12,139 nucleotides of DNA. Origin: a virus. Made by a program: the position numbers and the translations under genes. The stretch lies in the UHGV virus genome UHGV-0805720. One strand, given 5' to 3'. The notes under the pieces are model-generated. The model was not told the DNA's origin. It ran no database searches and worked only from the letters and a program-made list of their open reading frames with translations. Every line of letters starts with the position of its first letter. The stretch's first letter is position 1. This document shows positions 1 through 11,931 of this stretch, piece after piece.

Positions 1-1
1 C

Positions 2-292
2 CTATCCCCTGTGTGCCTTGATAAGTGTATGGCTAAGCCTATCATGAGCTTGTGGGCAGCAGGTTTGAAAACGCTAAACTGCTGCTGCGGTCATAACAAA
101 GATGTTCCAAGCATCATTATCCCAGAAGATGCAGATCCTAAAGCTTATGCCAAAATACTGACCCGATACCCCAGCACCTTCCTGATCGGAAAATGGTGTC
201 ACGATGAACTCCAATGGTGGATAGCCTATGGCAGTATAGGCACCACTTTTGGCTTCCCAGCTTTGTCAGAGCGCTATGTCAAGGTGCCATAA
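2..292 (+). CDS. hypothetical protein, probably 5'-truncated by window edge
   Basis: Reading frame is open from nt 2 to stop TAA 290-292; the ORF track starts it at GTG 11, with in-frame ATGs at 29 and 44. No convincing SD before any of these, so the gene most likely begins upstream of the window. No family recognised. Confidence 0.4.
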   Translation, partial: LSPVCLDKCMAKPIMSLWAAGLKTLNCCCGHNKDVPSIIIPEDADPKAYAKILTRYPSTFLIGKWCHDELQWWIAYGSIGTTFGFPALSERYVKVP

Positions 293-1114: not shown

Positions 1115-2080
1115 CTAAAGAGAGAAAGTTGCGTAGGCTCCCAGACGATACTGCTGGTCACCAGGGAACATAACACCTATAGAGGCTGTCCCTAGAATCC
1201 TGCCTTCCTTTCCAGACTCCATTCTGAACCCTACCCATCCTGAACTTCTTGCAGCCTCGATGTTGTCGCTATACCCGAAAGTGGCAAGATCGTCAACACC
1301 AGCCCCAAACAGCAACTGAAGCTGACTTCTCGGAAGCCCTATAATTTCAGGAATATATGCACCAAAGTACACCATCTGCCCTACCTTAGGACCGCTGCCG
1401 TACTCCATCGGCTTGCTTGTAGAGAAAGTCTTCATACCAGAAGTCCCTGCCGGATTAGGGTATGCCCCGTTTGTTGCTGTGCCTATCCACATTCTCCACT
1501 GAGGTGCCATCTGTCTGACAGTGAAAGATGTTGAAGACGTTTTGCGGCCTGCATCATCCGTAACTACAAACTTTATAGTGACATTACCAGGGGCTTTAAA
1601 TGTTACCAATCCTGTGGTAGCATCCACTGTTGCAATGTTAGTATTACTACTTTCCCAAGTCTTTCTAACCCCTGGCACATTGGAAGGGGTAATAGAAGGT
1701 TCCTGCATCTGCAGTTTACCGCCCACAATCCCTATGCCGTTACCTGGATTATACAACGCACCAACTTCATCTACAATGTTACCTGCCTTGAGGCTGTACT
1801 TTTTAGAGAAGTTGTAAGTGCCGTTATATGCGTGTGTCCCTGAGAAGGTTACATCTGCCTTGCCGTTGGAGATGCAAACCAAAGCATACTTCCTGTCAGG
1901 CAACTGTGCCCCAGTTTCTGGGTGAGTTTTACCCACCTGGAACACGCTCGGGTCCGTAGAGTCGTGGCTATCACTAACAGAGCTTGGACCACCCATCAAC
2001 TGTGACAAGCAATTCCTTACCCATGTCCAGTTATTGTCACTGGAGAAGTCTACAGTCAAAATCAAACACAACCCACTCAT
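1115..2080 (-). CDS. phage structural protein with bacterial Ig-like (Big_2-type) domain, likely tail fiber/virion decoration protein (321 aa)
   Basis: Long ORF, last gene of the minus-strand block. The segment '...NTNIATVDATTGLVTFKAPGNVTIKFVVTDDAGRKTSSTSFTV' matches the Big_2 pattern from memory. Start uncertain: ATG 2080 (weak GGAAG SD, overlaps upstream gene by 44 nt) or ATG 1996. Confidence 0.65.
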   Translation of the reverse strand: MSGLCLILTVDFSSDNNWTWVRNCLSQLMGGPSSVSDSHDSTDPSVFQVGKTHPETGAQLPDRKYALVCISNGKADVTFSGTHAYNGTYNFSKKYSLKAGNIVDEVGALYNPGNGIGIVGGKLQMQEPSITPSNVPGVRKTWESSNTNIATVDATTGLVTFKAPGNVTIKFVVTDDAGRKTSSTSFTVRQMAPQWRMWIGTATNGAYPNPAGTSGMKTFSTSKPMEYGSGPKVGQMVYFGAYIPEIIGLPRSQLQLLFGAGVDDLATFGYSDNIEAARSSGWVGFRMESGKEGRILGTASIGVMFPGDQQYRLGAYATFSL

Positions 2081-3554
2081 TTGGCTTCCACACAGGTGTT
2101 GTGATCAACTTACCAACACCTCCACCCTGAAGGGTAGGAGATTGTTCAGTGATCAGGGCAGAGTATGCCAGAGTTCCCAACTGCATAGTCTGGCTTGCTG
2201 TCCTCACTACCTTAGAATCAGCATCTGTGAAGTTGTTGATGATCTGGAATGTGCCGTAAGTGTTTTTACAGGTAATTCTGGCATTCAGTGTATCAATCTT
2301 TCTCACATCTGCCATGGCAGTGTTAGACACAGAGAAGTCAGAAGCTTTAGCTGAGTTTGCTGCAACAGCCGGATCAACGTTGAGGGTTGCGTTGAACTGG
2401 CAGGCAGGAGTAACTAGTAGCTTGTTATCACCTATTTGCTTCCATGAAACACTTTGAACAGGGAGATTCCATTTAATACCTGAGAAAACTTTAGCAACCC
2501 TTGGTCCCAGAGCTCCAGTCCTGGTGTCTTTACAGCACATGGACATGGTAATCGTTGACGGAGTAGCCTGACCAAACAGTTGCTGTGCTTTTGCAGAGGA
2601 CATAGTGTAGAAATTGTCCTTAACAAACTCATCAGCAGCCAAAGATCCATCAGCTCTCCACCACTGAACCTGATACCCTGTTTTGTCCCAACCACCGACC
2701 TGCTTCAAGTCCTCCCAAGAGATTTCCAGATCCCCAGTGGTAGGATTGATTGCAGCAGTTCCAGGTGTTCCAGAGGACCATAATGGGATATCGAACCACG
2801 CTGGTTTAACAGATTGTACTGCGTTCGGTCCTATTGCAGCAGCAAGTTGCTGCCCCATTAACACACGAGCATCTTTTACCAAGCCCCATTCAATCATGGA
2901 CCCGGAGTAGCCTTCTTTCTTATAGGCCGAAGATCCGTTCAAATGGATAAGCCTGCTGCAGTCGAAACCATACGCCCCGCCACCGTTAGGATCTGCAAAG
3001 TTAGTTATGATTCTATCCCTTATATTTTTCCATGCCCTGCCTCCAATCTCATAATCATGGTCATAACATCTCTGCAGCGTTGTCCAGCAAATGATTGCCA
3101 TTCTTCTGCCACCAGTAAACCCGAAAGCGCCGTCATTCAACTCTTTCCACAGATAGCAGTTAGTTGCCCACATAGCTCTGTGGATATTGAACCAGTTTAT
3201 AGACTTAGCAGAATTGTCCCACTGAGTTCCCGGTAATTCAGGCCACACAGCATTCACCAGCATATCCTCTGTGCCAGCATCGACCAAGAAGCCTCTTACC
3301 TTCCTACCCATCCCTTCTCTGTCTTTAGCAATCCAATTGCCAAACAGCCTCAGTTTTGGACCATAAACAACATCTTCAGGGTGCTCAAAAGAGACATACT
3401 TCAAGTATACCGTAGGATCACCGTAGGTGCCATCACAAACACTTTTATGCATGTTCTCACCCAGGTCTAGACGAAGTCCTGTCACCACTTTAGATGTGTC
3501 GGTGAATTTGTCTGTTAAATCAAATTCATACCACCACCATCCGCCACCAAGCAT
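2037..3554 (-). CDS. large Trp-rich hypothetical protein, possibly a carbohydrate-active or receptor-binding accessory protein (505-546 aa)
   Basis: Frame is open from a TTG at 3677 (116-nt overlap with the upstream gene). The first ATG is at 3554, only 7 nt after the upstream stop at 3562-3564, which suggests termination-reinitiation coupling. Contains GGGWWWYEF and many W/Y/G. Function not recognised. Confidence 0.6.
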   Translation of the reverse strand: MLGGGWWWYEFDLTDKFTDTSKVVTGLRLDLGENMHKSVCDGTYGDPTVYLKYVSFEHPEDVVYGPKLRLFGNWIAKDREGMGRKVRGFLVDAGTEDMLVNAVWPELPGTQWDNSAKSINWFNIHRAMWATNCYLWKELNDGAFGFTGGRRMAIICWTTLQRCYDHDYEIGGRAWKNIRDRIITNFADPNGGGAYGFDCSRLIHLNGSSAYKKEGYSGSMIEWGLVKDARVLMGQQLAAAIGPNAVQSVKPAWFDIPLWSSGTPGTAAINPTTGDLEISWEDLKQVGGWDKTGYQVQWWRADGSLAADEFVKDNFYTMSSAKAQQLFGQATPSTITMSMCCKDTRTGALGPRVAKVFSGIKWNLPVQSVSWKQIGDNKLLVTPACQFNATLNVDPAVAANSAKASDFSVSNTAMADVRKIDTLNARITCKNTYGTFQIINNFTDADSKVVRTASQTMQLGTLAYSALITEQSPTLQGGGVGKLITTPVWKPNEWVVFDFDCRLLQ

Positions 3555-3561
3555 AAATTTC

Positions 3562-6500
3562 TTAGCACCGCGCAGTGTCTGTATCTGATATTCTCTTATC
3601 CCCTGCAAAAGGTGAATCAGCAAACTGATAGTGCAGAGCAGTCTCAAATAGATGTGTTGAGGTTCCGTTTTCTGCAAGAACTTGCTTACCTATTAAGTCA
3701 CACTTAATGATCATCACAACACGCTTGTAGCCGTTTGTTATCGGAACCTGCATAGATATGGATGTTCCGTCCATGTTCGATCTTAGTGCGGTCATGATGA
3801 TGTAAGGATCAACAGCATTACCCAAAGTTTCAGGTCCTGGAATTATCTTGTACTTCTTGACCTGCCCCATGAATCTGTCGCTGGCGTAAGTTGCAGCCTC
3901 GAAGCAAGATCCACCACCAGGTAGTTCCCCCGGACCCCAGAAAAATGCGCCATAACAGTTATAAAACCACTTGTTAGGGTCATATTTATTCTTGAAGGTC
4001 TGAACCTCGTTGGCCTGTTTTGTCAAGAAAACCTGCGTATCTGTGAAGATTGCAGGGTTTACTCTCGCCTGTCTTGGAGGGTAACCTGTTGATTGGTTAA
4101 ACCACTGATTGCAAGAGATATCCCTCATGTAGTCATAATCAGAGTATTTGTTTACATCTTCGTTCCAACACATGTTCAGGTTGGTACCGCCCATGCATAC
4201 AATATATTCTGCGACATACTTATCACTTCTGGTAGGAATACCTATGAACCATCTGTTAACAGGCTCATCCCAAGCTGTGCGCTCATCTTTAACGCAGATA
4301 GCAATCCAGTCATGTGTTCCTGTTTTCTTGCACACATCTCGCTTCATACCATAGTAGAACTCTTTAGTATTCGGCTCAGGTGCATTTATCAGGTAACTCC
4401 ATGCCTGATTTGCATAAGTCCCATTGGTGCGCGGATCATGATCAAAGGCATACATGATGATCCTTTCCCCACCAAGATGTTCGCCAAGAGTAACTTTGAC
4501 ATTCACATCGCCGTAACCGTTGCGAACAACATCCATATTGTCAATAGAGATGCCTCTAGGAGTGTAGGCAATTTTCAGTGAGTTATCCTCACTAGTGCCA
4601 CCAAGAGTGATCCCTATGTTGTTTGTTGTCCCGTCGGCATATCTTACTGTAGCTTCCCAGCGTATTCCGAAATATCCTACATCATGGCTGACAATTTTCA
4701 GTGTACGAGCGCCAGGGTGAGGTTTTCCAGGATCAGGCCAAGGGTCTGGGTGTTCGTGGACAGTTAACGACGTTCCGTTCTGCTCGTTAACCTGCAACAT
4801 TTTACCACCTCTGCCGTTAGGGTTGAACTCCCATACGGCCTGTGTCTGCACCAAGTTGTTGTAGGTATTTCTTCTCTGATCATAAATCTCTTGGGTAACA
4901 TCATAAGTGACTGATCCAGCATCCATTCTGTGAAGTCGGACCATGTACGATGTATCCCCTTCTACTGCAGGCTGAGTCCCATTCAGTCCGAAGTATACAG
5001 TATCGTTAACATGGAACTGCTTGTTTCTACCAACGGTATGCCACTTGCCGTTGGACGGATACGCAGGAACTATGGTGTTCCAGTTCAAAGTCCTTGTCGT
5101 GTGAGTTCTGCCTGTGCCATGCTTGTCATGATAGGTTATTTTTACAGAGTACAGGCCACGTCTGTTAACATTCCTGTTATACTGGGTAACAATAACTTCA
5201 TTGGCCCCACCGTGGTTCCAGTTGGTAGAGAATTGGTAATTTGCATCTGTAACAACCGTGCCTGCAGCATTTACCAGTTCAATCTTGTCAATAATGAACG
5301 TAGCCCCCTCTGGCTGAGGCTTCAATTTCATCTTGACCGTGTCACCAATGTAAATATTGCTAACGCTGCTAACACCGTTAACGTCGAAAATATCATCAAC
5401 ACCCCAACTGTCTACCGGGACATTTTTATACCAATTCTCAGGAACCTCTGTGAACCCCTGACTATTAAGTCTGCCGCCAAACAGGTTGTTAGATCCTGCA
5501 AAACTTCCCCTTGGAATTCCTGACCACCAAAGTTTACCATTAACAACAGTAAATGTTCCTAAGAAACCTTCCCTGTGGATTCCTTGGAAATAAACACTCT
5601 CTGTCCAGCTAACTGGCAGGCGTTGCTCAACATATTTAGCTGTAGCAAGAGCTTGATAGTGGATAAAATCGGCCCTAGGACTATTGTTTGCAGATTGTGC
5701 ACCAATATCATTACATAAGTTGCGAGAGAACCCACGATACTGCTTAGTGCCATTATTGAAGAAAATGCCGCTTGTGCCGTACCCACGAGCCATTATTACC
5801 TCATGGGTGTAGGTGATATTCAGTTCCCGCCATGTATCATCTCCCCAAATGTTTTGACCATAGAATACGTTAACAAGCTGCTGGTCATCGGGTCTATGCA
5901 TCCTCTGTGTAGCAATTATTGCCCCGTTAGGACCACACATAAACCCTTTCCACTCCTCGTCTGCAGGAATGCCTCTCAAATCGTTACGGGTGATCTGTAC
6001 AGGAGGCCAAACAAGGTCATTTCTACTGTTGTTTCTCAGAAAGTCGTATCCAGCAATCCAGAAACCTCTAGGACCACCGAAGATAACAGAGTTGTCATGC
6101 ACCTCGCAATTAATGCTTTGGTTTTTCCAAGGACCTGTTTCAGGATTCTCAGATGTCTCACCAATTTTTACAGGGGTTGCATGTTGATTTTTATCCACAT
6201 GTAAAGATCCATAGGTGTTGTTACCAGACCCATACAGGTGTAAAATACCGTTACCTTCAGCCTCTGCAATAACCCAGACAGTGTTGTTAATGCCGCCCAT
6301 CACCTCAACAAGGCGCTCTGGGTGGGTGTCAAGGTGCAATCCTTTAACGATTTGTTCTGGAAGAGGTGTCCACTCCCTTACACAAACATCATTACCGCCT
6401 GCAGCATCAGACCCAATAAGCCCTGCAGTACAGCCGATGTAGAAAAACTGATTATCAAAAGTTCGGATCACAAACGCACGGTCTGCTCTCCACACATGAT

Positions 6501-6753
6501 CGACGTTCCAGGCAGCCTCATTAGGGTAGTTTATCGTGTCAAGATCCCCAGTCCTACACTCCCCGAACCTGTTGTACCCTGTGATATTAAGCTGACCATT
6601 GTCAAAAAGTATAGCTAAGCTATTTACATAGGCTACTGTAGTGCTTGTACCGTCACTGTTGTCTATTGGGTATGACAGAACAGCAAGTTCCTTAACTCCA
6701 CCCCTCTTATCGAGGAAATGACGACCAAGTTTTAGCAAAGGGATTGGAAGCAT
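3562..6753 (-). CDS. very large phage structural/host-interaction protein (1063 aa), function unknown
   Basis: Uninterrupted 3.2-kb ORF; ATG 6753 with GGAGA SD 5 nt upstream. N-terminal region has glycine-rich repeats (e.g. 'YGSGNNTYGSLHVD') faintly reminiscent of beta-propeller repeats; not verified. Confidence 0.8.
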   Translation of the reverse strand: MLPIPLLKLGRHFLDKRGGVKELAVLSYPIDNSDGTSTTVAYVNSLAILFDNGQLNITGYNRFGECRTGDLDTINYPNEAAWNVDHVWRADRAFVIRTFDNQFFYIGCTAGLIGSDAAGGNDVCVREWTPLPEQIVKGLHLDTHPERLVEVMGGINNTVWVIAEAEGNGILHLYGSGNNTYGSLHVDKNQHATPVKIGETSENPETGPWKNQSINCEVHDNSVIFGGPRGFWIAGYDFLRNNSRNDLVWPPVQITRNDLRGIPADEEWKGFMCGPNGAIIATQRMHRPDDQQLVNVFYGQNIWGDDTWRELNITYTHEVIMARGYGTSGIFFNNGTKQYRGFSRNLCNDIGAQSANNSPRADFIHYQALATAKYVEQRLPVSWTESVYFQGIHREGFLGTFTVVNGKLWWSGIPRGSFAGSNNLFGGRLNSQGFTEVPENWYKNVPVDSWGVDDIFDVNGVSSVSNIYIGDTVKMKLKPQPEGATFIIDKIELVNAAGTVVTDANYQFSTNWNHGGANEVIVTQYNRNVNRRGLYSVKITYHDKHGTGRTHTTRTLNWNTIVPAYPSNGKWHTVGRNKQFHVNDTVYFGLNGTQPAVEGDTSYMVRLHRMDAGSVTYDVTQEIYDQRRNTYNNLVQTQAVWEFNPNGRGGKMLQVNEQNGTSLTVHEHPDPWPDPGKPHPGARTLKIVSHDVGYFGIRWEATVRYADGTTNNIGITLGGTSEDNSLKIAYTPRGISIDNMDVVRNGYGDVNVKVTLGEHLGGERIIMYAFDHDPRTNGTYANQAWSYLINAPEPNTKEFYYGMKRDVCKKTGTHDWIAICVKDERTAWDEPVNRWFIGIPTRSDKYVAEYIVCMGGTNLNMCWNEDVNKYSDYDYMRDISCNQWFNQSTGYPPRQARVNPAIFTDTQVFLTKQANEVQTFKNKYDPNKWFYNCYGAFFWGPGELPGGGSCFEAATYASDRFMGQVKKYKIIPGPETLGNAVDPYIIMTALRSNMDGTSISMQVPITNGYKRVVMIIKCDLIGKQVLAENGTSTHLFETALHYQFADSPFAGDKRISDTDTARC

Positions 6754-8556: not shown

Positions 8557-8823
8557 TTAAGCTTTTTGCTCTTCGCTTTTAACGTGGTCAGGGTGCTGGC
8601 AACCCCACCGGAGCGAGATGAATTTGCTAATAAGCTGGGGACAGGCTACCGATGGTGCGTATATCCACGCATACCATTCAGGAAGTGTATCATTGTACCC
8701 CATGTGAATAAACACCCCAGTCATCACTGCCATGCCGATGTTCGACCATAGCTTAGATTGGGACACTTTTGTAGGGTCATCAGATGCCGCAACCAGTCCC
8801 CATAAAAACTGAGTCAGTTTCAT
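8557..8823 (-). CDS. small membrane protein (88 aa), holin-like architecture; function unknown
   Basis: ATG 8823 preceded by AAGAGGG SD that overlaps the stop of the tail-fiber remnant. Two to three hydrophobic segments and a charged C-terminus (KSEEQKA). Stop overlaps the SD of the 581-aa gene. Confidence 0.6.
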   Translation of the reverse strand: MKLTQFLWGLVAASDDPTKVSQSKLWSNIGMAVMTGVFIHMGYNDTLPEWYAWIYAPSVACPQLISKFISLRWGCQHPDHVKSEEQKA

Positions 8824-8849
8824 TTACCCTCTTTTTAAGCATAAGATAT

Positions 8850-8879
8850 AGTGATCCATTGACCGTTTACAAGTTTTTG
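8850..8879 (-). repeat. conserved 30-bp 3' tail-fiber junction, copy 1 (29/30 identical to 10906..10935)
   Basis: Minus-strand CAAAAACTTGTAAACGGTCAATGGATCACT encoding QKLVNGQWIT; the flanking about 15 bp on each side are also partly similar, while the rest of the two genes is diverged at the nucleotide level. Confidence 0.7.
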
Positions 8880-9001
8880 GATAGCACCTGTCCAATAGTC
8901 GCCTTGATATGGGTGTTTGTAAGCGTAGTTACCAGAACACATTACATGCCCTACGTAAACTCTTGATTCTCTGTAGGTGGTTCTGAAGCGGTTTGCTATT
9001 C

Positions 9002-9760
9002 TTACATCGTCAATCCCCTGCTGGGCATAGGAATGGTAAGATTGCCGCTGCTGTCTGCACTATTACCGTTAACCCTACGAACCACATTTCTACCACCGAC
9101 TATTGAATGCTGCCCCCGCACAGTTCCATCATTACAATCCAATCTTCCACCAACTTGGGCATTACCGCAAGATTGTTGTCCATTGACGGTAGCTCTTGGT
9201 ATCGTGACAGCATTAGCATTTGCAGAGGAACTTTTTGCGTCGTTGCATTCAAGATTCCCCTGGATAGCCAGTCTTGCACGATTGGCAGTTATAGCATTGA
9301 GCTTCATGGCAGAAAACACAGGCTGTCCACCAGAAGGTTGGAATCTCCAACGGAACCCGTCTATTTGATTAGAAGAGTCATCAAGATCTGCACCGTCTGC
9401 ACCACCAATATTGTCCATAATCCAGAAATCCATCAGCGTCTTGTCTGGAGTTATAGTGGTATATATTGCCGCACTATCTGTGGACGCAGATGCGAACTGT
9501 ATTCTTTGAAGACCTAGAGTTTGAGTCTGAGTCATTGTGTCCCCAGATTTGTCAACATACAGGTCGTCCATTTCTTCAGGGGAGTATACATTGAGAACTT
9601 GGCGTGCAGCAGCTTTGTCTGGAACGTCTGCTAGATTATTGGTAACCCTTAAAAATCTATTATCCCATCCTGGGACAACATCTTCTGTTAAATGTCTTAA
9701 CCACGCAGAAAGCATGTGAAGTTCAAAGTTAACAACTTCACATGCCACTCTTTGTGTCAT
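9002..9760 (-). CDS. tail fiber protein, central fragment (longest intact ORF of the frameshifted paralog)
   Basis: 252-aa ORF with clear homology to residues about 60-285 of the 346-aa tail fiber. Its ATG overlaps the stop of the 39-aa N-terminal piece (ATGA) and it has no SD of its own, so it is unlikely to be an independent gene. Confidence 0.5.
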   Translation of the reverse strand: MTQRVACEVVNFELHMLSAWLRHLTEDVVPGWDNRFLRVTNNLADVPDKAAARQVLNVYSPEEMDDLYVDKSGDTMTQTQTLGLQRIQFASASTDSAAIYTTITPDKTLMDFWIMDNIGGADGADLDDSSNQIDGFRWRFQPSGGQPVFSAMKLNAITANRARLAIQGNLECNDAKSSSANANAVTIPRATVNGQQSCGNAQVGGRLDCNDGTVRGQHSIVGGRNVVRRVNGNSADSSGNLTIPMPSRGLTM

Positions 9761-9906
9761 ATCCCAACCTTCAGTCTCTCTTCTTTTTTTGGTTGAGACT
9801 TATTCAACTCTCCTGTATTTTCAAGCACAACATCCTGATTGGCCCAAATATCAAGAGGGATAACTGGTTTAGCCATCACGTTCTCCTGAGAAAATTCCTT
9901 AGGACT

Positions 9907-9935
9907 ATTTTAACACTTTAGAGAACAAAATGCAA
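9907..9935 (-). promoter_or_regulatory. candidate sigma70-like promoter upstream of the second tail fiber gene
   Basis: On the minus strand: TTGCAT (9935..9930), 17-nt spacer, TAAAAT (9912..9907); lies between the stop of the 104-aa gene and the SD AGGAGA of the tail fiber N-terminal ORF. A weak hairpin (ACGGA..TCCGT) precedes it. Confidence 0.3.
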
Positions 9936-9965
9936 GAACGGAGTCCTTTCCGTCCTGACCTTTGT

Positions 9966-10291: not shown

Positions 10292-10876
10292 TTAGAGGGT
10301 AGGTCGTTCCGGGAAGAAAATGTCAGGGGCTTTAGATGTATCTATTTCAAGAAGTTTTACCCTGTACATTTTCAAATCTCTGATGTTGCGTTTTTGGTCA
10401 TCAGTAAGATCATATTCAAGGTCAATCATGTCTTGATAGGCACCAATTCTAGCAGTAGCCCAAGCAAGTTCTGTCTCTATGACACCCTCTGCCTGTTGAA
10501 CAAAGAATTCATTATCTGTGACAAATTCATCACCAACTAAACGCAAAGCGTCGTGGTGGAGCATAATGTTTTCTGGTACCTCTTCTTTTTTGGCGATAAC
10601 CACACGAAGACCTGGAGCAGGCCATAAGGCATCAGGCTCTTCTGTAGATGTCTTAAGAATACCCTTCTCGTCAACAAGTAGGAATATACAACCAGGGTTT
10701 TCTTGTCGTAATGTTCTGGACTGCACATACCAATCGCCGTCATCATTACGTAAAAAATACCCTGTGTATGCAGTATAATCCTCAACCTCTTGAGGGGTTA
10801 ACTCTTTGGTTTCCTCATTGGCAGAGTATTCGCCAGACCCTGGCTGGTAAAGTTTAAACTCTTGAAGTATTTTCAT
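10292..10876 (-). CDS. tfa: tail fiber assembly chaperone (Tfa / Caudo_TAP family)
   Basis: 194 aa; ATG 10876 with GGAGGA SD, directly downstream of the tail fiber gene. C-terminal motif '...LKMYRVKLLEIDTSKAPDIFFPERP' matches the conserved Tfa ending (..W.KYR..L..VD.S.APDI.WP..P) as recalled for lambda Tfa / P2 G / Mu U. Confidence 0.85.
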   Translation of the reverse strand: MKILQEFKLYQPGSGEYSANEETKELTPQEVEDYTAYTGYFLRNDDGDWYVQSRTLRQENPGCIFLLVDEKGILKTSTEEPDALWPAPGLRVVIAKKEEVPENIMLHHDALRLVGDEFVTDNEFFVQQAEGVIETELAWATARIGAYQDMIDLEYDLTDDQKRNIRDLKMYRVKLLEIDTSKAPDIFFPERPTL

Positions 10877-10890
10877 GCTAGTCCTCCGAT

Positions 10891-11931
10891 CTATGCATAA
10901 TTAACAGTGATCCACTGACCGTTTACAAGTTTTTGTAAAGGTCCTGCCCAGTAAGTTGAACCACGCATTTCTTTTTTATCACCAAAATGCCAGCCTGTGA
11001 CAACGTAGCCATTGCGGACTGGAGATTCAGAAACACCGTCAACAAGTCTTGCACCAATTCTAATGTCTTGCACACCTGTTTGCGGAATAGTGATCGTTAC
11101 ATCGCCGTTACCGTTGGCGGTTACACCGTTCACAGAGCGGACCACATTTCGGTTACCAACAACACAGTGCTGACTTCTCACAACCAGACTATCACAACTG
11201 GTGCCGCCATTGACATACAGTGACCCTGTAGTTAACTGGCTTCCCACATTGCAGTTGGTGAATGTTGCTGTGCTAGTAATGGTAAGGTTGTTGCACCTCA
11301 TGTTGTCTACAATTTCAACATTACCTATCACTTTTAGCAGTGCACGGTTAGCTGTGATGGCATTCAGGTACATCAAAGTAAACTCAGGGTTAATGTCCGG
11401 CTGAGTTGGTTGAAATCTCCAGCGGAATGCGTCTACTGTAGATGTTCCACCATCATCGAACGACCCTGTATTGTCACTCAATCCAAAATCAAGAGTTGTC
11501 TTGTCTGGACCGATGGTTGTCTCTATCCAAGCCTTATCCGTCTCGGCAGCTTTAAAGTTGATACGTTGCAGACCTAAAGGGCCTGTCATTGTATCCCCTG
11601 TAACTTTTACATACCTGGCATCTGCCTCTTCCTTAGTAATAATCCCAAGGTTTTTACGGGCAACAGGAATGTTCAAAAGATCGCTCAAGTTATTATCCCG
11701 TACCAGATAACGACCTTCTTGAGCGGGGATCTGCTCGTCAGCAATGTATTTTGCCCAAGTTCCGAGCATATTAAAAATATAGTTAAGCTCTTCACATGAT
11801 GGCTTTTGACCAAGATCCCAACCTTTTCTCCACAAATCATCAATCGGGCGCAGCCTGTTCTGTCTGTGGGTGTTAGGCAGAACCTGATCCTCCTCTGCCC
11901 AAATCTCTAATGGAAAACTAGGTTTTGACAT
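10891..11931 (-). CDS. tail fiber protein (346 aa), Tfa-dependent side-fiber type
   Basis: ATG 11931 with AGGAG SD. Its C-terminus 'GWHFGDKKEMRGSTYWAGPLQKLVNGQWITVNYA' resembles the conserved C-terminal end of P2 gpH / Mu S / lambda Stf-type fibers (from memory). Followed immediately by a Tfa chaperone gene. Paralogous to the 8835..9876 locus. Confidence 0.85.
   Translation of the reverse strand: MSKPSFPLEIWAEEDQVLPNTHRQNRLRPIDDLWRKGWDLGQKPSCEELNYIFNMLGTWAKYIADEQIPAQEGRYLVRDNNLSDLLNIPVARKNLGIITKEEADARYVKVTGDTMTGPLGLQRINFKAAETDKAWIETTIGPDKTTLDFGLSDNTGSFDDGGTSTVDAFRWRFQPTQPDINPEFTLMYLNAITANRALLKVIGNVEIVDNMRCNNLTITSTATFTNCNVGSQLTTGSLYVNGGTSCDSLVVRSQHCVVGNRNVVRSVNGVTANGNGDVTITIPQTGVQDIRIGARLVDGVSESPVRNGYVVTGWHFGDKKEMRGSTYWAGPLQKLVNGQWITVNYA
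10906..10935 (-). repeat. conserved 30-bp 3' tail-fiber junction, copy 2 (direct repeat of 8850..8879)
   Basis: Minus-strand CAAAAACTTGTAAACGGTCAGTGGATCACT encoding QKLVNGQWIT at the 3' end of the intact tail fiber gene, just upstream of the tfa SD. Confidence 0.7.

What the first reader, a model, noticed from the sequence alone, without database searches (positions are those of the whole stretch)
8835..9876. Second tail fiber paralog is split across three reading frames by two -1 frame changes
The 39-aa, 252-aa and about 74-aa pieces align colinearly and without gaps to the N-terminus, middle and C-terminus of the intact 346-aa tail fiber when joined by a -1 shift at the A7 run (9784-9790) and another near 9026-9029. 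This is either (a) a tail fiber duplicate caught in decay, (b) an expression-switchable or phase-variable adhesin, or (c) single-base deletions in the assembly. Each break would be repaired by adding one nucleotide.
Basis: seen in the sequence. Interest (0 to 1): 0.7.

Follow-up and report, generated by a model that had tools for sequence, protein, structure and literature searches.

The report
Tail fibre gene broken by indel artefacts
The "split" gene is the well-known second short tail fibre gene of an rV5-like coliphage; it is missing two single bases that every relative has, most likely through sequencing or assembly error, so it is ordinary.

Summary
The window is the tail-fibre module of an rV5-like Vequintavirus, with genes on the minus strand. 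Region 8835-9876 is the orthologue of "short tail fiber protein 2". In every other sequence examined this is one uninterrupted 1044-nt ORF.

The gene is indeed split over three frames, and one added base repairs each break.
- The A7 run (9784-9790) is A7 and read in frame in all 21 relatives' loci.
- The real lesions are a lost T at 9770-9771 and a lost C between 9013 and 9014.
- Restoring both gives an ORF 100% identical in DNA to an Illumina-derived contig that matches the window at 99.93% over 11.25 kb.

The window's private changes are 4 single-base indels and 1 substitution. Its five closest relatives together have 2 indels and 376 substitutions (p = 8e-8). The other two indels break the neighbouring 1878-aa intimin-domain fibre gene in the same way.

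The gene is under strong purifying selection (dN/dS 0.03-0.06). It scored as essential in a transposon screen of a related phage.

Verdict: sequence or assembly artefact, about 0.7; very recent real mutations, about 0.2. It is not programmed frameshifting, phase variation or long-term decay. Interest is low.

The parts
8835..9876 (-). Short tail fibre protein 2 (STF2) gene of a Vequintavirus. It is interrupted by two single-base deletions. When repaired it is 1044 nt and encodes 347 aa.
   Evidence: Orthologous to bas56_0037, CPT_Murica29 and bas54_0038. The repaired ORF is 100% identical in DNA to L016 12056-13099. The repaired protein matches phrog_4465 'tail fiber protein' full length, E = 6.5e-162.
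9757..9876 (-). N-terminal 39-codon piece plus its premature TGA stop.
   Evidence: Translation: MAKPVIPLDIWANQDVVLENTGELNKSQPKKEERLK, then the out-of-frame residues VGI and a stop.
9770..9771 (.). Deletion site 1. The window has TT where all relatives have TTT (coding strand GAAAGG becomes GAAGG).
   Evidence: Alignments. All 21 loci carry the extra base.
9784..9790 (-). A7 run on the coding strand. It is not a break point. It is invariant and read in frame in relatives.
   Evidence: The A-run is 7 in all 21 loci, and all of those ORFs are intact. See also the alignment.
9002..9760 (-). Middle 252-aa ORF. It starts at a native internal Met codon.
   Evidence: In relatives the Met is part of G-W-D-M-T.
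9013..9014 (.). Deletion site 2. A C is missing between these two bases (coding strand GGGGAGTTG becomes GGGGATTG).
8835..9013 (-). C-terminal piece: 58 homologous codons plus the stop, in the third frame.
10891..11931 (-). Intact paralog, short tail fibre protein 1 (346 aa).
   Evidence: The exact protein is found on at least 24 contigs. It matches phrog_4465 full length and is 43% identical to repaired STF2.
10292..10876 (-). Tail fibre chaperone / assembly protein (194 aa), located between the two paralogs.
   Evidence: Pfam Caudo_TAP, E = 8e-12. Annotated 'tail fiber chaperone' in the BASEL phages.
1115..6753 (-). Intimin/Big_2-domain lateral tail fibre gene. It is also split in three, by two private single-base insertions: A4 at 2058-2061 (A3 in relatives) and an extra A at 3564.
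   Evidence: Removing both bases restores an 1878-aa ORF that differs by 2 aa from L016.

Best explanation
The region is the ordinary second short-tail-fibre gene (STF2) of an rV5-like Vequintavirus. STF2 is one of two paralogous short tail fibres encoded next to a chaperone gene. In this particular sequence record the gene lacks two single bases: one T at 9770-9771 and one C between 9013 and 9014. The neighbouring intimin-domain fibre gene carries two extra single bases.

The most likely cause is error in sequencing, consensus calling or assembly, or some other non-biological edit of the record. The underlying phage then has an intact 347-aa protein.

Shown here:
- the position and privacy of the indels;
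- exact restoration of a known intact allele;
- conservation of, and selection on, the gene.

Inferred: that the indels are artefacts rather than real mutations.
For: 1. All 21 loci retrieved from relatives have an uninterrupted 1044-nt ORF. A tblastn search of the repaired protein finds 117 phage records at 90% aa identity or more. Every listed full-length row is a single unbroken piece.
2. The closest relative is L016, a Logan assembly of run ERR2368555. It is 99.93% identical over 11,251 nt and differs by 4 substitutions and 4 single-base gaps. Inside STF2 the only differences are the two deletions, and repairing them gives 100% DNA identity.
3. The window's private changes are 4 indels and 1 substitution. 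The five nearest relatives have 2 indels and 376 substitutions (Fisher p = 8e-8). The three nearest have 0 and 9 (p = 0.005).
4. All four indels break frames in genes that are otherwise conserved. dN/dS of STF2 is 0.03-0.06, including on the branch to the closest GenBank relative.
5. The placement of the indels is compatible with chance: P(all four in two genes or fewer) = 0.40 and P(two or more in STF2) = 0.046.
6. [quoted passage not shown]
7. The broken junction sequences occur nowhere in IMG/VR, JGI metagenomes or GTDB genomes. The broken products are absent from the 153-billion-gene index.
Against: - No reads are available, so an artefact cannot be proven.
- None of the 33 homopolymers of 5 nt or more in the aligned part of the window is altered. 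The indels sit in or next to runs of only 3-4 nt, which is not the classic homopolymer error profile of 454, Ion Torrent or nanopore data.
- Both affected genes encode receptor-binding proteins, a class of gene that laboratory phage stocks are known to lose (my own knowledge).
- The intimin-domain fibre is experimentally dispensable on E. coli K-12 (281 of 336 TA sites hit), so real loss of that gene is plausible.
- The 'Essential' call for STF2 could partly reflect polar effects of the transposon on downstream genes. Every gene from bas54_0032 to bas54_0040 was called essential.
Confidence: 0.72

Rival explanations
1. The indels are real and very recent loss-of-function mutations. The genome would be a defective or laboratory- or host-adapted variant that has inactivated STF2 and the intimin-domain lateral fibre. 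It would rely on the intact paralog STF1 and the remaining fibres.
For: - Both hit genes encode receptor-binding proteins.
- The intimin-domain fibre is non-essential on K-12 and only conditionally required on some clinical isolates (main text of 10.1101/2025.11.20.689424).
- An intact paralog (43% identical) and the chaperone remain.
- The indels are not in long homopolymers, so they do not resemble typical platform errors.
Against: - Two same-sign frameshifts in each of two genes would have to arise alongside only one private substitution in 11 kb. That indel-to-substitution ratio is unlike any relative.
- A second hit in an already dead gene brings no selective gain.
- STF2 scored as essential in Bas54 and is intact in every other record.
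- dN/dS of 0.03-0.06 shows the gene matters.
Confidence: 0.22
2. Programmed recoding. Full-length STF2 would be made by two -1 events (ribosomal frameshifts or transcriptional slippage), the first at the in-phase A_AAA_AAA heptamer in 9784-9790.
For: - In the window the zero-frame reading is CC-A AAA AAA-G, a formally perfect X_XXY_YYZ heptamer.
- It lies inside the roughly 45-nt overlap in which a -1 shift would rejoin the frames.
- A stable hairpin lies downstream.
Against: - The frame breaks are not conserved. All relatives encode the protein in one frame through the same A7 run, so no frameshift requirement has evolved.
- The true lesion is 13 nt downstream of the run.
- The hairpin starts 37 nt after the heptamer, too far for a classic stimulator.
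- The second overlap window contains no X_XXY_YYZ heptamer.
- Two sequential low-efficiency shifts would give a negligible yield (inference).
Confidence: 0.02
3. Phase variation. The gene would be switched on and off by length changes in a hypermutable simple-sequence tract.
For: An A7 tract exists near the 5' end of the gene.
Against: - The A7 tract has the same length in all 21 loci.
- The actual indels are in a T3 run and at a non-repeat position.
- No full-length row listed from the 117 phage records shows an off state.
- Two independent breaks would both have to revert.
Confidence: 0.02
4. Long-term decay of a redundant duplicate (a pseudogene).
For: Two paralogs exist side by side, so redundancy is conceivable.
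Against: - The broken copy has no private substitution.
- dN/dS is 0.03-0.06.
- The paralog pair is conserved intact across the genus. This agrees with Maffei et al. 2021 (PMC8594841), who report two conserved short tail fibre paralogs with little allelic variation.
Confidence: 0.02

Closest known systems
Short tail fibre protein 2 of Vequintavirus phages (for example bas54_0038 of phage MaxBurger/Bas54, bas56_0037 of AlexBoehm, CPT_Murica29). It is one of the two short tail fibre paralogs described by Maffei et al. 2021, PLoS Biol (PMC8594841).
   Same: - Same position in the module: STF1, chaperone, 104-aa gene, STF2, 88-aa gene, glycosidase fibre, intimin-domain fibre.
- 90-100% DNA identity.
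- The repaired product is 347 aa and 93-99% identical in protein to the GenBank records.
   Different: Only the two missing bases.
The stf frameshift of laboratory phage lambda (lambda PaPa), in which a single-base deletion splits the side tail fibre gene into two ORFs. This comparison rests on my own knowledge (Hendrix and Duda 1992) and was not checked here.
   Same: A tail-fibre gene broken by a single-base deletion, in a phage that can still infect its laboratory host using other fibres. It is the natural analogue if the indels turn out to be real.
   Different: The lambda case was confirmed experimentally and is a single lesion in a non-essential fibre. Here there are two lesions per gene and no read support, and the orthologous gene scored as essential in a relative.
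Programmed -1 frameshifting in phage tail genes (lambda G/GT-type tail assembly chaperones) and at the dnaX A_AAA_AAG site. This rests on my own knowledge.
   Same: An in-phase A-rich heptamer is present in the window's zero frame.
   Different: In the known cases the frameshift is conserved among relatives and has a nearby stimulator. Here relatives read straight through in one frame, and the hairpin is 37 nt away.
Phage Mu tail fibre GpS and chaperone GpU, with host-range switching by G-segment inversion. Maffei et al. 2021 state the homology to the Vequintavirus short tail fibre locus. The inversion mechanism is from my own knowledge.
   Same: According to that paper, the fibre-plus-chaperone locus is homologous, and it exists as two alternative fibre versions.
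   Different: Mu switches by site-specific inversion. Vequintaviruses carry both paralogs as separate, co-oriented genes. No invertase gene or inversion was noticed in the window (no dedicated search), and no frameshift switch.

Membership tests
Vequintavirus short tail fibre protein 2 (phrog_4465 tail fibre family) | Full-length sequence match to the family profile and to annotated orthologues | tested here: met
   The repaired protein matches phrog_4465 over residues 1-347 of 347, E = 6.5e-162. It is 93-99% aa identical to GenBank orthologues and 100% identical in DNA to L016.
Vequintavirus short tail fibre protein 2 (phrog_4465 tail fibre family) | Conserved position in the tail-fibre module (STF1, chaperone, small ORF, STF2, small ORF, glycosidase fibre, intimin fibre) | tested here: met
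   The gene order in the window is identical to AlexBoehm, Murica, EmilHeitz, typing phage 4 and 10 further contigs (9 Logan assemblies and 1 NCBI record).
Vequintavirus short tail fibre protein 2 (phrog_4465 tail fibre family) | A single uninterrupted ORF of about 347 codons | tested here: not met
   The window has two single-base deletions. The gene is a member by descent but is not intact as recorded.
Programmed -1 ribosomal frameshift site | The frame change is conserved among relatives, meaning the product requires the shift | tested here: not met
   All 21 loci, and every full-length row listed from the 117 phage records, encode the protein in one frame.
Programmed -1 ribosomal frameshift site | An in-phase X_XXY_YYZ slippery heptamer at each shift | tested here: inconclusive
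   The first overlap window contains A_AAA_AAA in phase. The second overlap window has no such heptamer, only a possible single-tRNA slip at G_GGA.
Programmed -1 ribosomal frameshift site | A stimulatory structure 5-9 nt downstream of the heptamer | tested here: not met
   The only strong hairpin (9711-9746) starts 37 nt downstream of the heptamer.
Simple-sequence (homopolymer) phase variation | The break lies in a hypermutable tract whose length varies among relatives | tested here: not met
   The breaks are in a T3 run and at a non-repeat position. The A7 tract is 7 in all 21 loci.
Decaying pseudogene | Relaxed selection, or accumulated substitutions together with disabling mutations | tested here: not met
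   STF2 has no private substitution. dN/dS is 0.03-0.06.
Sequencing/assembly indel artefact | An excess of private single-base indels over substitutions, spread over several genes, relative to near-identical genomes | tested here: met
   4 indels to 1 substitution, against 2 to 376 in relatives (p = 8e-8). Two different genes are hit.
Sequencing/assembly indel artefact | Reads disagree with the consensus at the indel sites | not testable with these tools
   No reads are available, and the source record could not be identified. It is absent from INPHARED, PLSDB, RefSeq E. coli, IMG/VR, JGI metagenomes, GTDB genomes and the gene index.

The most novel reading that the evidence does not exclude
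The indels are real. This would then be a viable Vequintavirus that has lost both STF2 and the intimin-domain lateral fibre. That would show that the two short-tail-fibre paralogs are functionally redundant, or that a trace of full-length STF2 is rescued by slippage at the in-phase A_AAA_AAA heptamer. It would contradict the 'essential' call for STF2 in the Bas54 transposon screen.
Probability: 0.12. Interest if true: 0.3.

Novelty: not a real feature. Interest (0 to 1): 0.07.

Why it matters
It matters mostly as a quality flag. As recorded, the sequence would lead annotators to call six fragments or pseudogenes in place of two receptor-binding genes. It could also prompt false claims of recoding or phase variation.

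If the indels were real, they would bear on whether the two conserved short-tail-fibre paralogs of rV5-like phages are redundant. That is a modest, specialist question, and simple resequencing and plating would settle it.

Tried and rejected
- Exact look-ups of the broken products (the 252-aa, 1063-aa and 321-aa pieces) in the gene index, to find the source contig. Nothing is on record.
- Exact scans for the two broken junctions in IMG/VR, JGI metagenomes and GTDB genomes. No hits. A positive-control scan for the intact junction in IMG/VR also found nothing. This allele is simply not represented there, so the IMG/VR negatives carry little weight.
- Searches of RefSeq E. coli genomes and PLSDB for the source. 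None in E. coli. One 91%-identical 'plasmid' that is really a phage genome.
- Pfam on the tail-fibre proteins. No family for either short tail fibre paralog.
- A PDB sequence search. Only an N-terminal 84-residue match to a chain named 'Short tail fiber' (9cuy_c, E = 5e-9).
- A test of whether the indels cluster non-randomly in genes. The result is not significant, or only marginally so.
- Whether the downstream hairpin could be a frameshift stimulator. Rejected on spacing.
- Structure prediction and the large protein-database searches were not run, because they could not change the verdict.

Full report
**What the window is.** The 12.1-kb window is the lateral and short tail-fibre module of an rV5-like myovirus (genus Vequintavirus).
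- A megablast search finds 117-127 phage records at 90-95% identity covering the whole window.
- All large genes lie on the minus strand, in the same order as in annotated relatives (AlexBoehm, Murica, EmilHeitz, O157 typing phage 4).
- In direction of transcription the order is: short tail fibre 1 (10891-11931, 346 aa); tail-fibre chaperone (10292-10876, Pfam Caudo_TAP); a 104-aa protein; the gene in question (8835-9876); an 88-aa membrane protein; a 581-aa glycosidase-domain fibre; and a very large intimin/Big_2-domain fibre (1115-6753).
- Maffei et al. 2021 (PMC8594841) describe this arrangement. Vequintavirinae sensu stricto encode two paralogous short tail fibre proteins and a chaperone, which that paper reports as homologous to Mu GpS/GpU, with little allelic variation between genomes.

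**Checking the observation.** Translating the minus strand of 8800-9900 in three frames confirms three pieces:
- a 39-aa N-terminal piece (MAKPV...EERLKVGI, then a stop);
- the 252-aa ORF 9002-9760;
- a C-terminal stretch ending ...LVNGQWITISYA, then a stop.

The pieces are colinear with the intact paralog, and each transition is a -1 change.

Alignment with relatives shows that the A7 run at 9784-9790 is also A7 in every relative. There it is read straight through as CCA AAA AAA GAA GAG AGA (C/T)TG AAA GGT TGG, which is P K K E E R L K G W.

The window instead lacks two other bases:
- One base of the A3 in ...TGAAAGG..., which on the plus strand is TT at 9770-9771 instead of TTT. This lies 13 nt downstream of the run.
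- A G in GGGGAGTTG, which on the plus strand is a C missing between 9013 and 9014.

Inserting those two bases gives a 1044-nt ORF. The alignment of the repaired protein to the intact paralog is 43% identical with 19 gap positions. It is therefore colinear but not gapless.

**Comparative evidence.**
- All 21 loci fetched from relatives have an uninterrupted 1044-nt ORF with the A-run fixed at 7. They comprise GenBank records and 9 Logan assemblies, and three of the loci are the same GenBank record.
- A tblastn search of the repaired protein against 50,697 phage records finds 117 records at 90% aa identity or more. Every listed full-length row is a single unbroken piece. The only partial ones are cut by record ends.
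- An exact-protein look-up with the intact paralog retrieved contigs nearly identical to the window. L016 (Logan assembly, run ERR2368555) is 99.93% identical over 11,251 nt, and L010 is 99.87% identical.
- The column-by-column comparison shows that the window differs from L016 by 4 substitutions and 4 single-base gaps. Inside STF2 it differs by nothing except the two deletions.
- The repaired gene is 100% identical in DNA to L016's gene.

**The neighbouring gene shows the same thing.** The other two gaps are single-base insertions private to the window, both in the intimin-domain fibre gene: A4 at 2058-2061 (A3 elsewhere) and an extra A at 3564. They split that 1878-aa gene into the ORFs 3562-6753, 2037-3677 and 1115-2080. 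Removing both restores an 1878-aa ORF that differs at 2 residues from L016.

**Mutation spectrum.** I counted changes private to each sequence in the six-way alignment.
- The window has 4 indels and 1 substitution.
- L016, L010 and L011 together have 0 indels and 9 substitutions (Fisher p = 0.005).
- All five relatives together have 2 indels and 376 substitutions (p = 8e-8).

An almost purely indel spectrum, with every indel breaking a frame in otherwise conserved genes, is what consensus or assembly errors look like. It is not what natural divergence looks like.

The placement of four random indels is unremarkable: P(all in two genes or fewer) = 0.40 and P(two or more in STF2) = 0.046.

STF2 is under strong purifying selection, with dN/dS of 0.03-0.06 against relatives at 2-10% divergence.

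In the HIDEN-SEQ transposon screen of the Vequintavirus Bas54 (bioRxiv 10.1101/2025.11.20.689424, supplementary file 9):
- 'short tail fiber protein 2' (bas54_0038) was hit at 1 of 57 TA sites and classed Essential;
- the intimin-domain fibre (bas54_0041) was hit at 281 of 336 sites and classed Non-essential on K-12.

The coordinates of bas54_0038 (38899-39942) match phage MaxBurger, whose STF2 is 94.5% identical in protein to the repaired gene. One caveat applies. Every gene from bas54_0032 to bas54_0040 was called essential, so polarity may contribute to these calls.

**Alternatives.**

*Programmed frameshifting.* In the window the zero frame does place a formally perfect A_AAA_AAA heptamer inside the overlap between the first two frames. 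Several things argue against it:
- relatives do not need any shift;
- the second overlap has no slippery heptamer;
- the only strong hairpin is a perfect 13-bp stem at 9711-9746 (z = -4.06) that begins 37 nt after the heptamer.

*Phase variation.* This fails because the breaks are not in variable tracts.

*Long-term decay.* This fails because the gene has no private substitution and a low dN/dS.

*Real, very recent mutations.* This is the only serious rival. Both genes encode receptor-binding proteins, and one of them is dispensable in the laboratory. It would however need two same-sign frameshifts in each of two genes alongside only one substitution.

**What remains unexplained.** None of the 33 homopolymers of 5 nt or more in the aligned part of the window is altered. 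The indels sit in or next to runs of 3-4 nt, which is atypical of homopolymer-driven platform errors.

At 3564 the window reads 'AG' where relatives have either G or A. That hints at a mixed-strain consensus error.

The source record could not be identified in any available collection, so no reads or metadata could be consulted.

**Verdict.** Its best explanation is an artefact, with confidence about 0.7. Recent genuine loss-of-function mutations come second, at about 0.2. Recoding, phase variation and gene decay are each at about 0.02. The gene itself is a well-known, conserved Vequintavirus short tail fibre gene. Interest is low.

Noticed in passing
window 1115-6753 (-); indels at 2058-2061 and 3564: The 1878-aa intimin/Big_2-domain lateral tail fibre gene is also split into three ORFs (3562-6753, 2037-3677, 1115-2080). 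The cause is two single-base insertions private to the window. Removing them restores the full ORF.
   Followed up: yes
window 9711-9746 (-): A perfect 13-bp hairpin followed by CUUUCU lies inside the STF2 coding sequence (111-nt fold, -35.6 kcal/mol, z = -4.06). The same element is annotated as a 'terminator' inside Murica gp29. It is identical in sequence in the four sequences aligned across it (window and three relatives), so covariation could not be tested. Its function is unknown.
   Followed up: partly
GenBank MG065635-MG065690 (hits H25, H29-H36, H42-H46 and others): Sixteen records named 'Campylobacter phage', with host C. jejuni, are rV5-like Vequintaviruses more than 91% identical to this coliphage window. 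They are probably mislabelled or contaminating coliphages.
   Followed up: no
PLSDB CP057073.1 (hit H116): A 137.6-kb record filed as a non-mobilizable E. coli plasmid carries this locus at 91% identity. It is evidently a Vequintavirus genome.
   Followed up: no
window 1-9: The first nine bases (CCTATCCCC) do not align to any relative, whereas alignment is continuous from base 10 onward. This may be an edge of a divergent segment or a contig-end artefact.
   Followed up: no
window 9757-9760 (-): The premature TGA of the 39-aa piece overlaps the ATG of the 252-aa ORF (ATGA). This looks like translational coupling, but the Met is a native internal residue (G-W-D-M-T in relatives), so the overlap is a by-product of the deletion.
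   Followed up: yes
window 9935-9956 (-): A terminator-like stem-loop with a T-rich tail lies in the 89-nt gap between the 104-aa gene and STF2. STF2 and the genes downstream of it may therefore be transcribed separately from STF1 and the chaperone.
   Followed up: no
L001/L006/L015 (OX460980.1), aligned to window 8832 and 1072: The closest GenBank relative has its own single-base contractions of intergenic A5/T5 runs relative to all other sequences. These are possibly homopolymer errors in that assembly.
   Followed up: no
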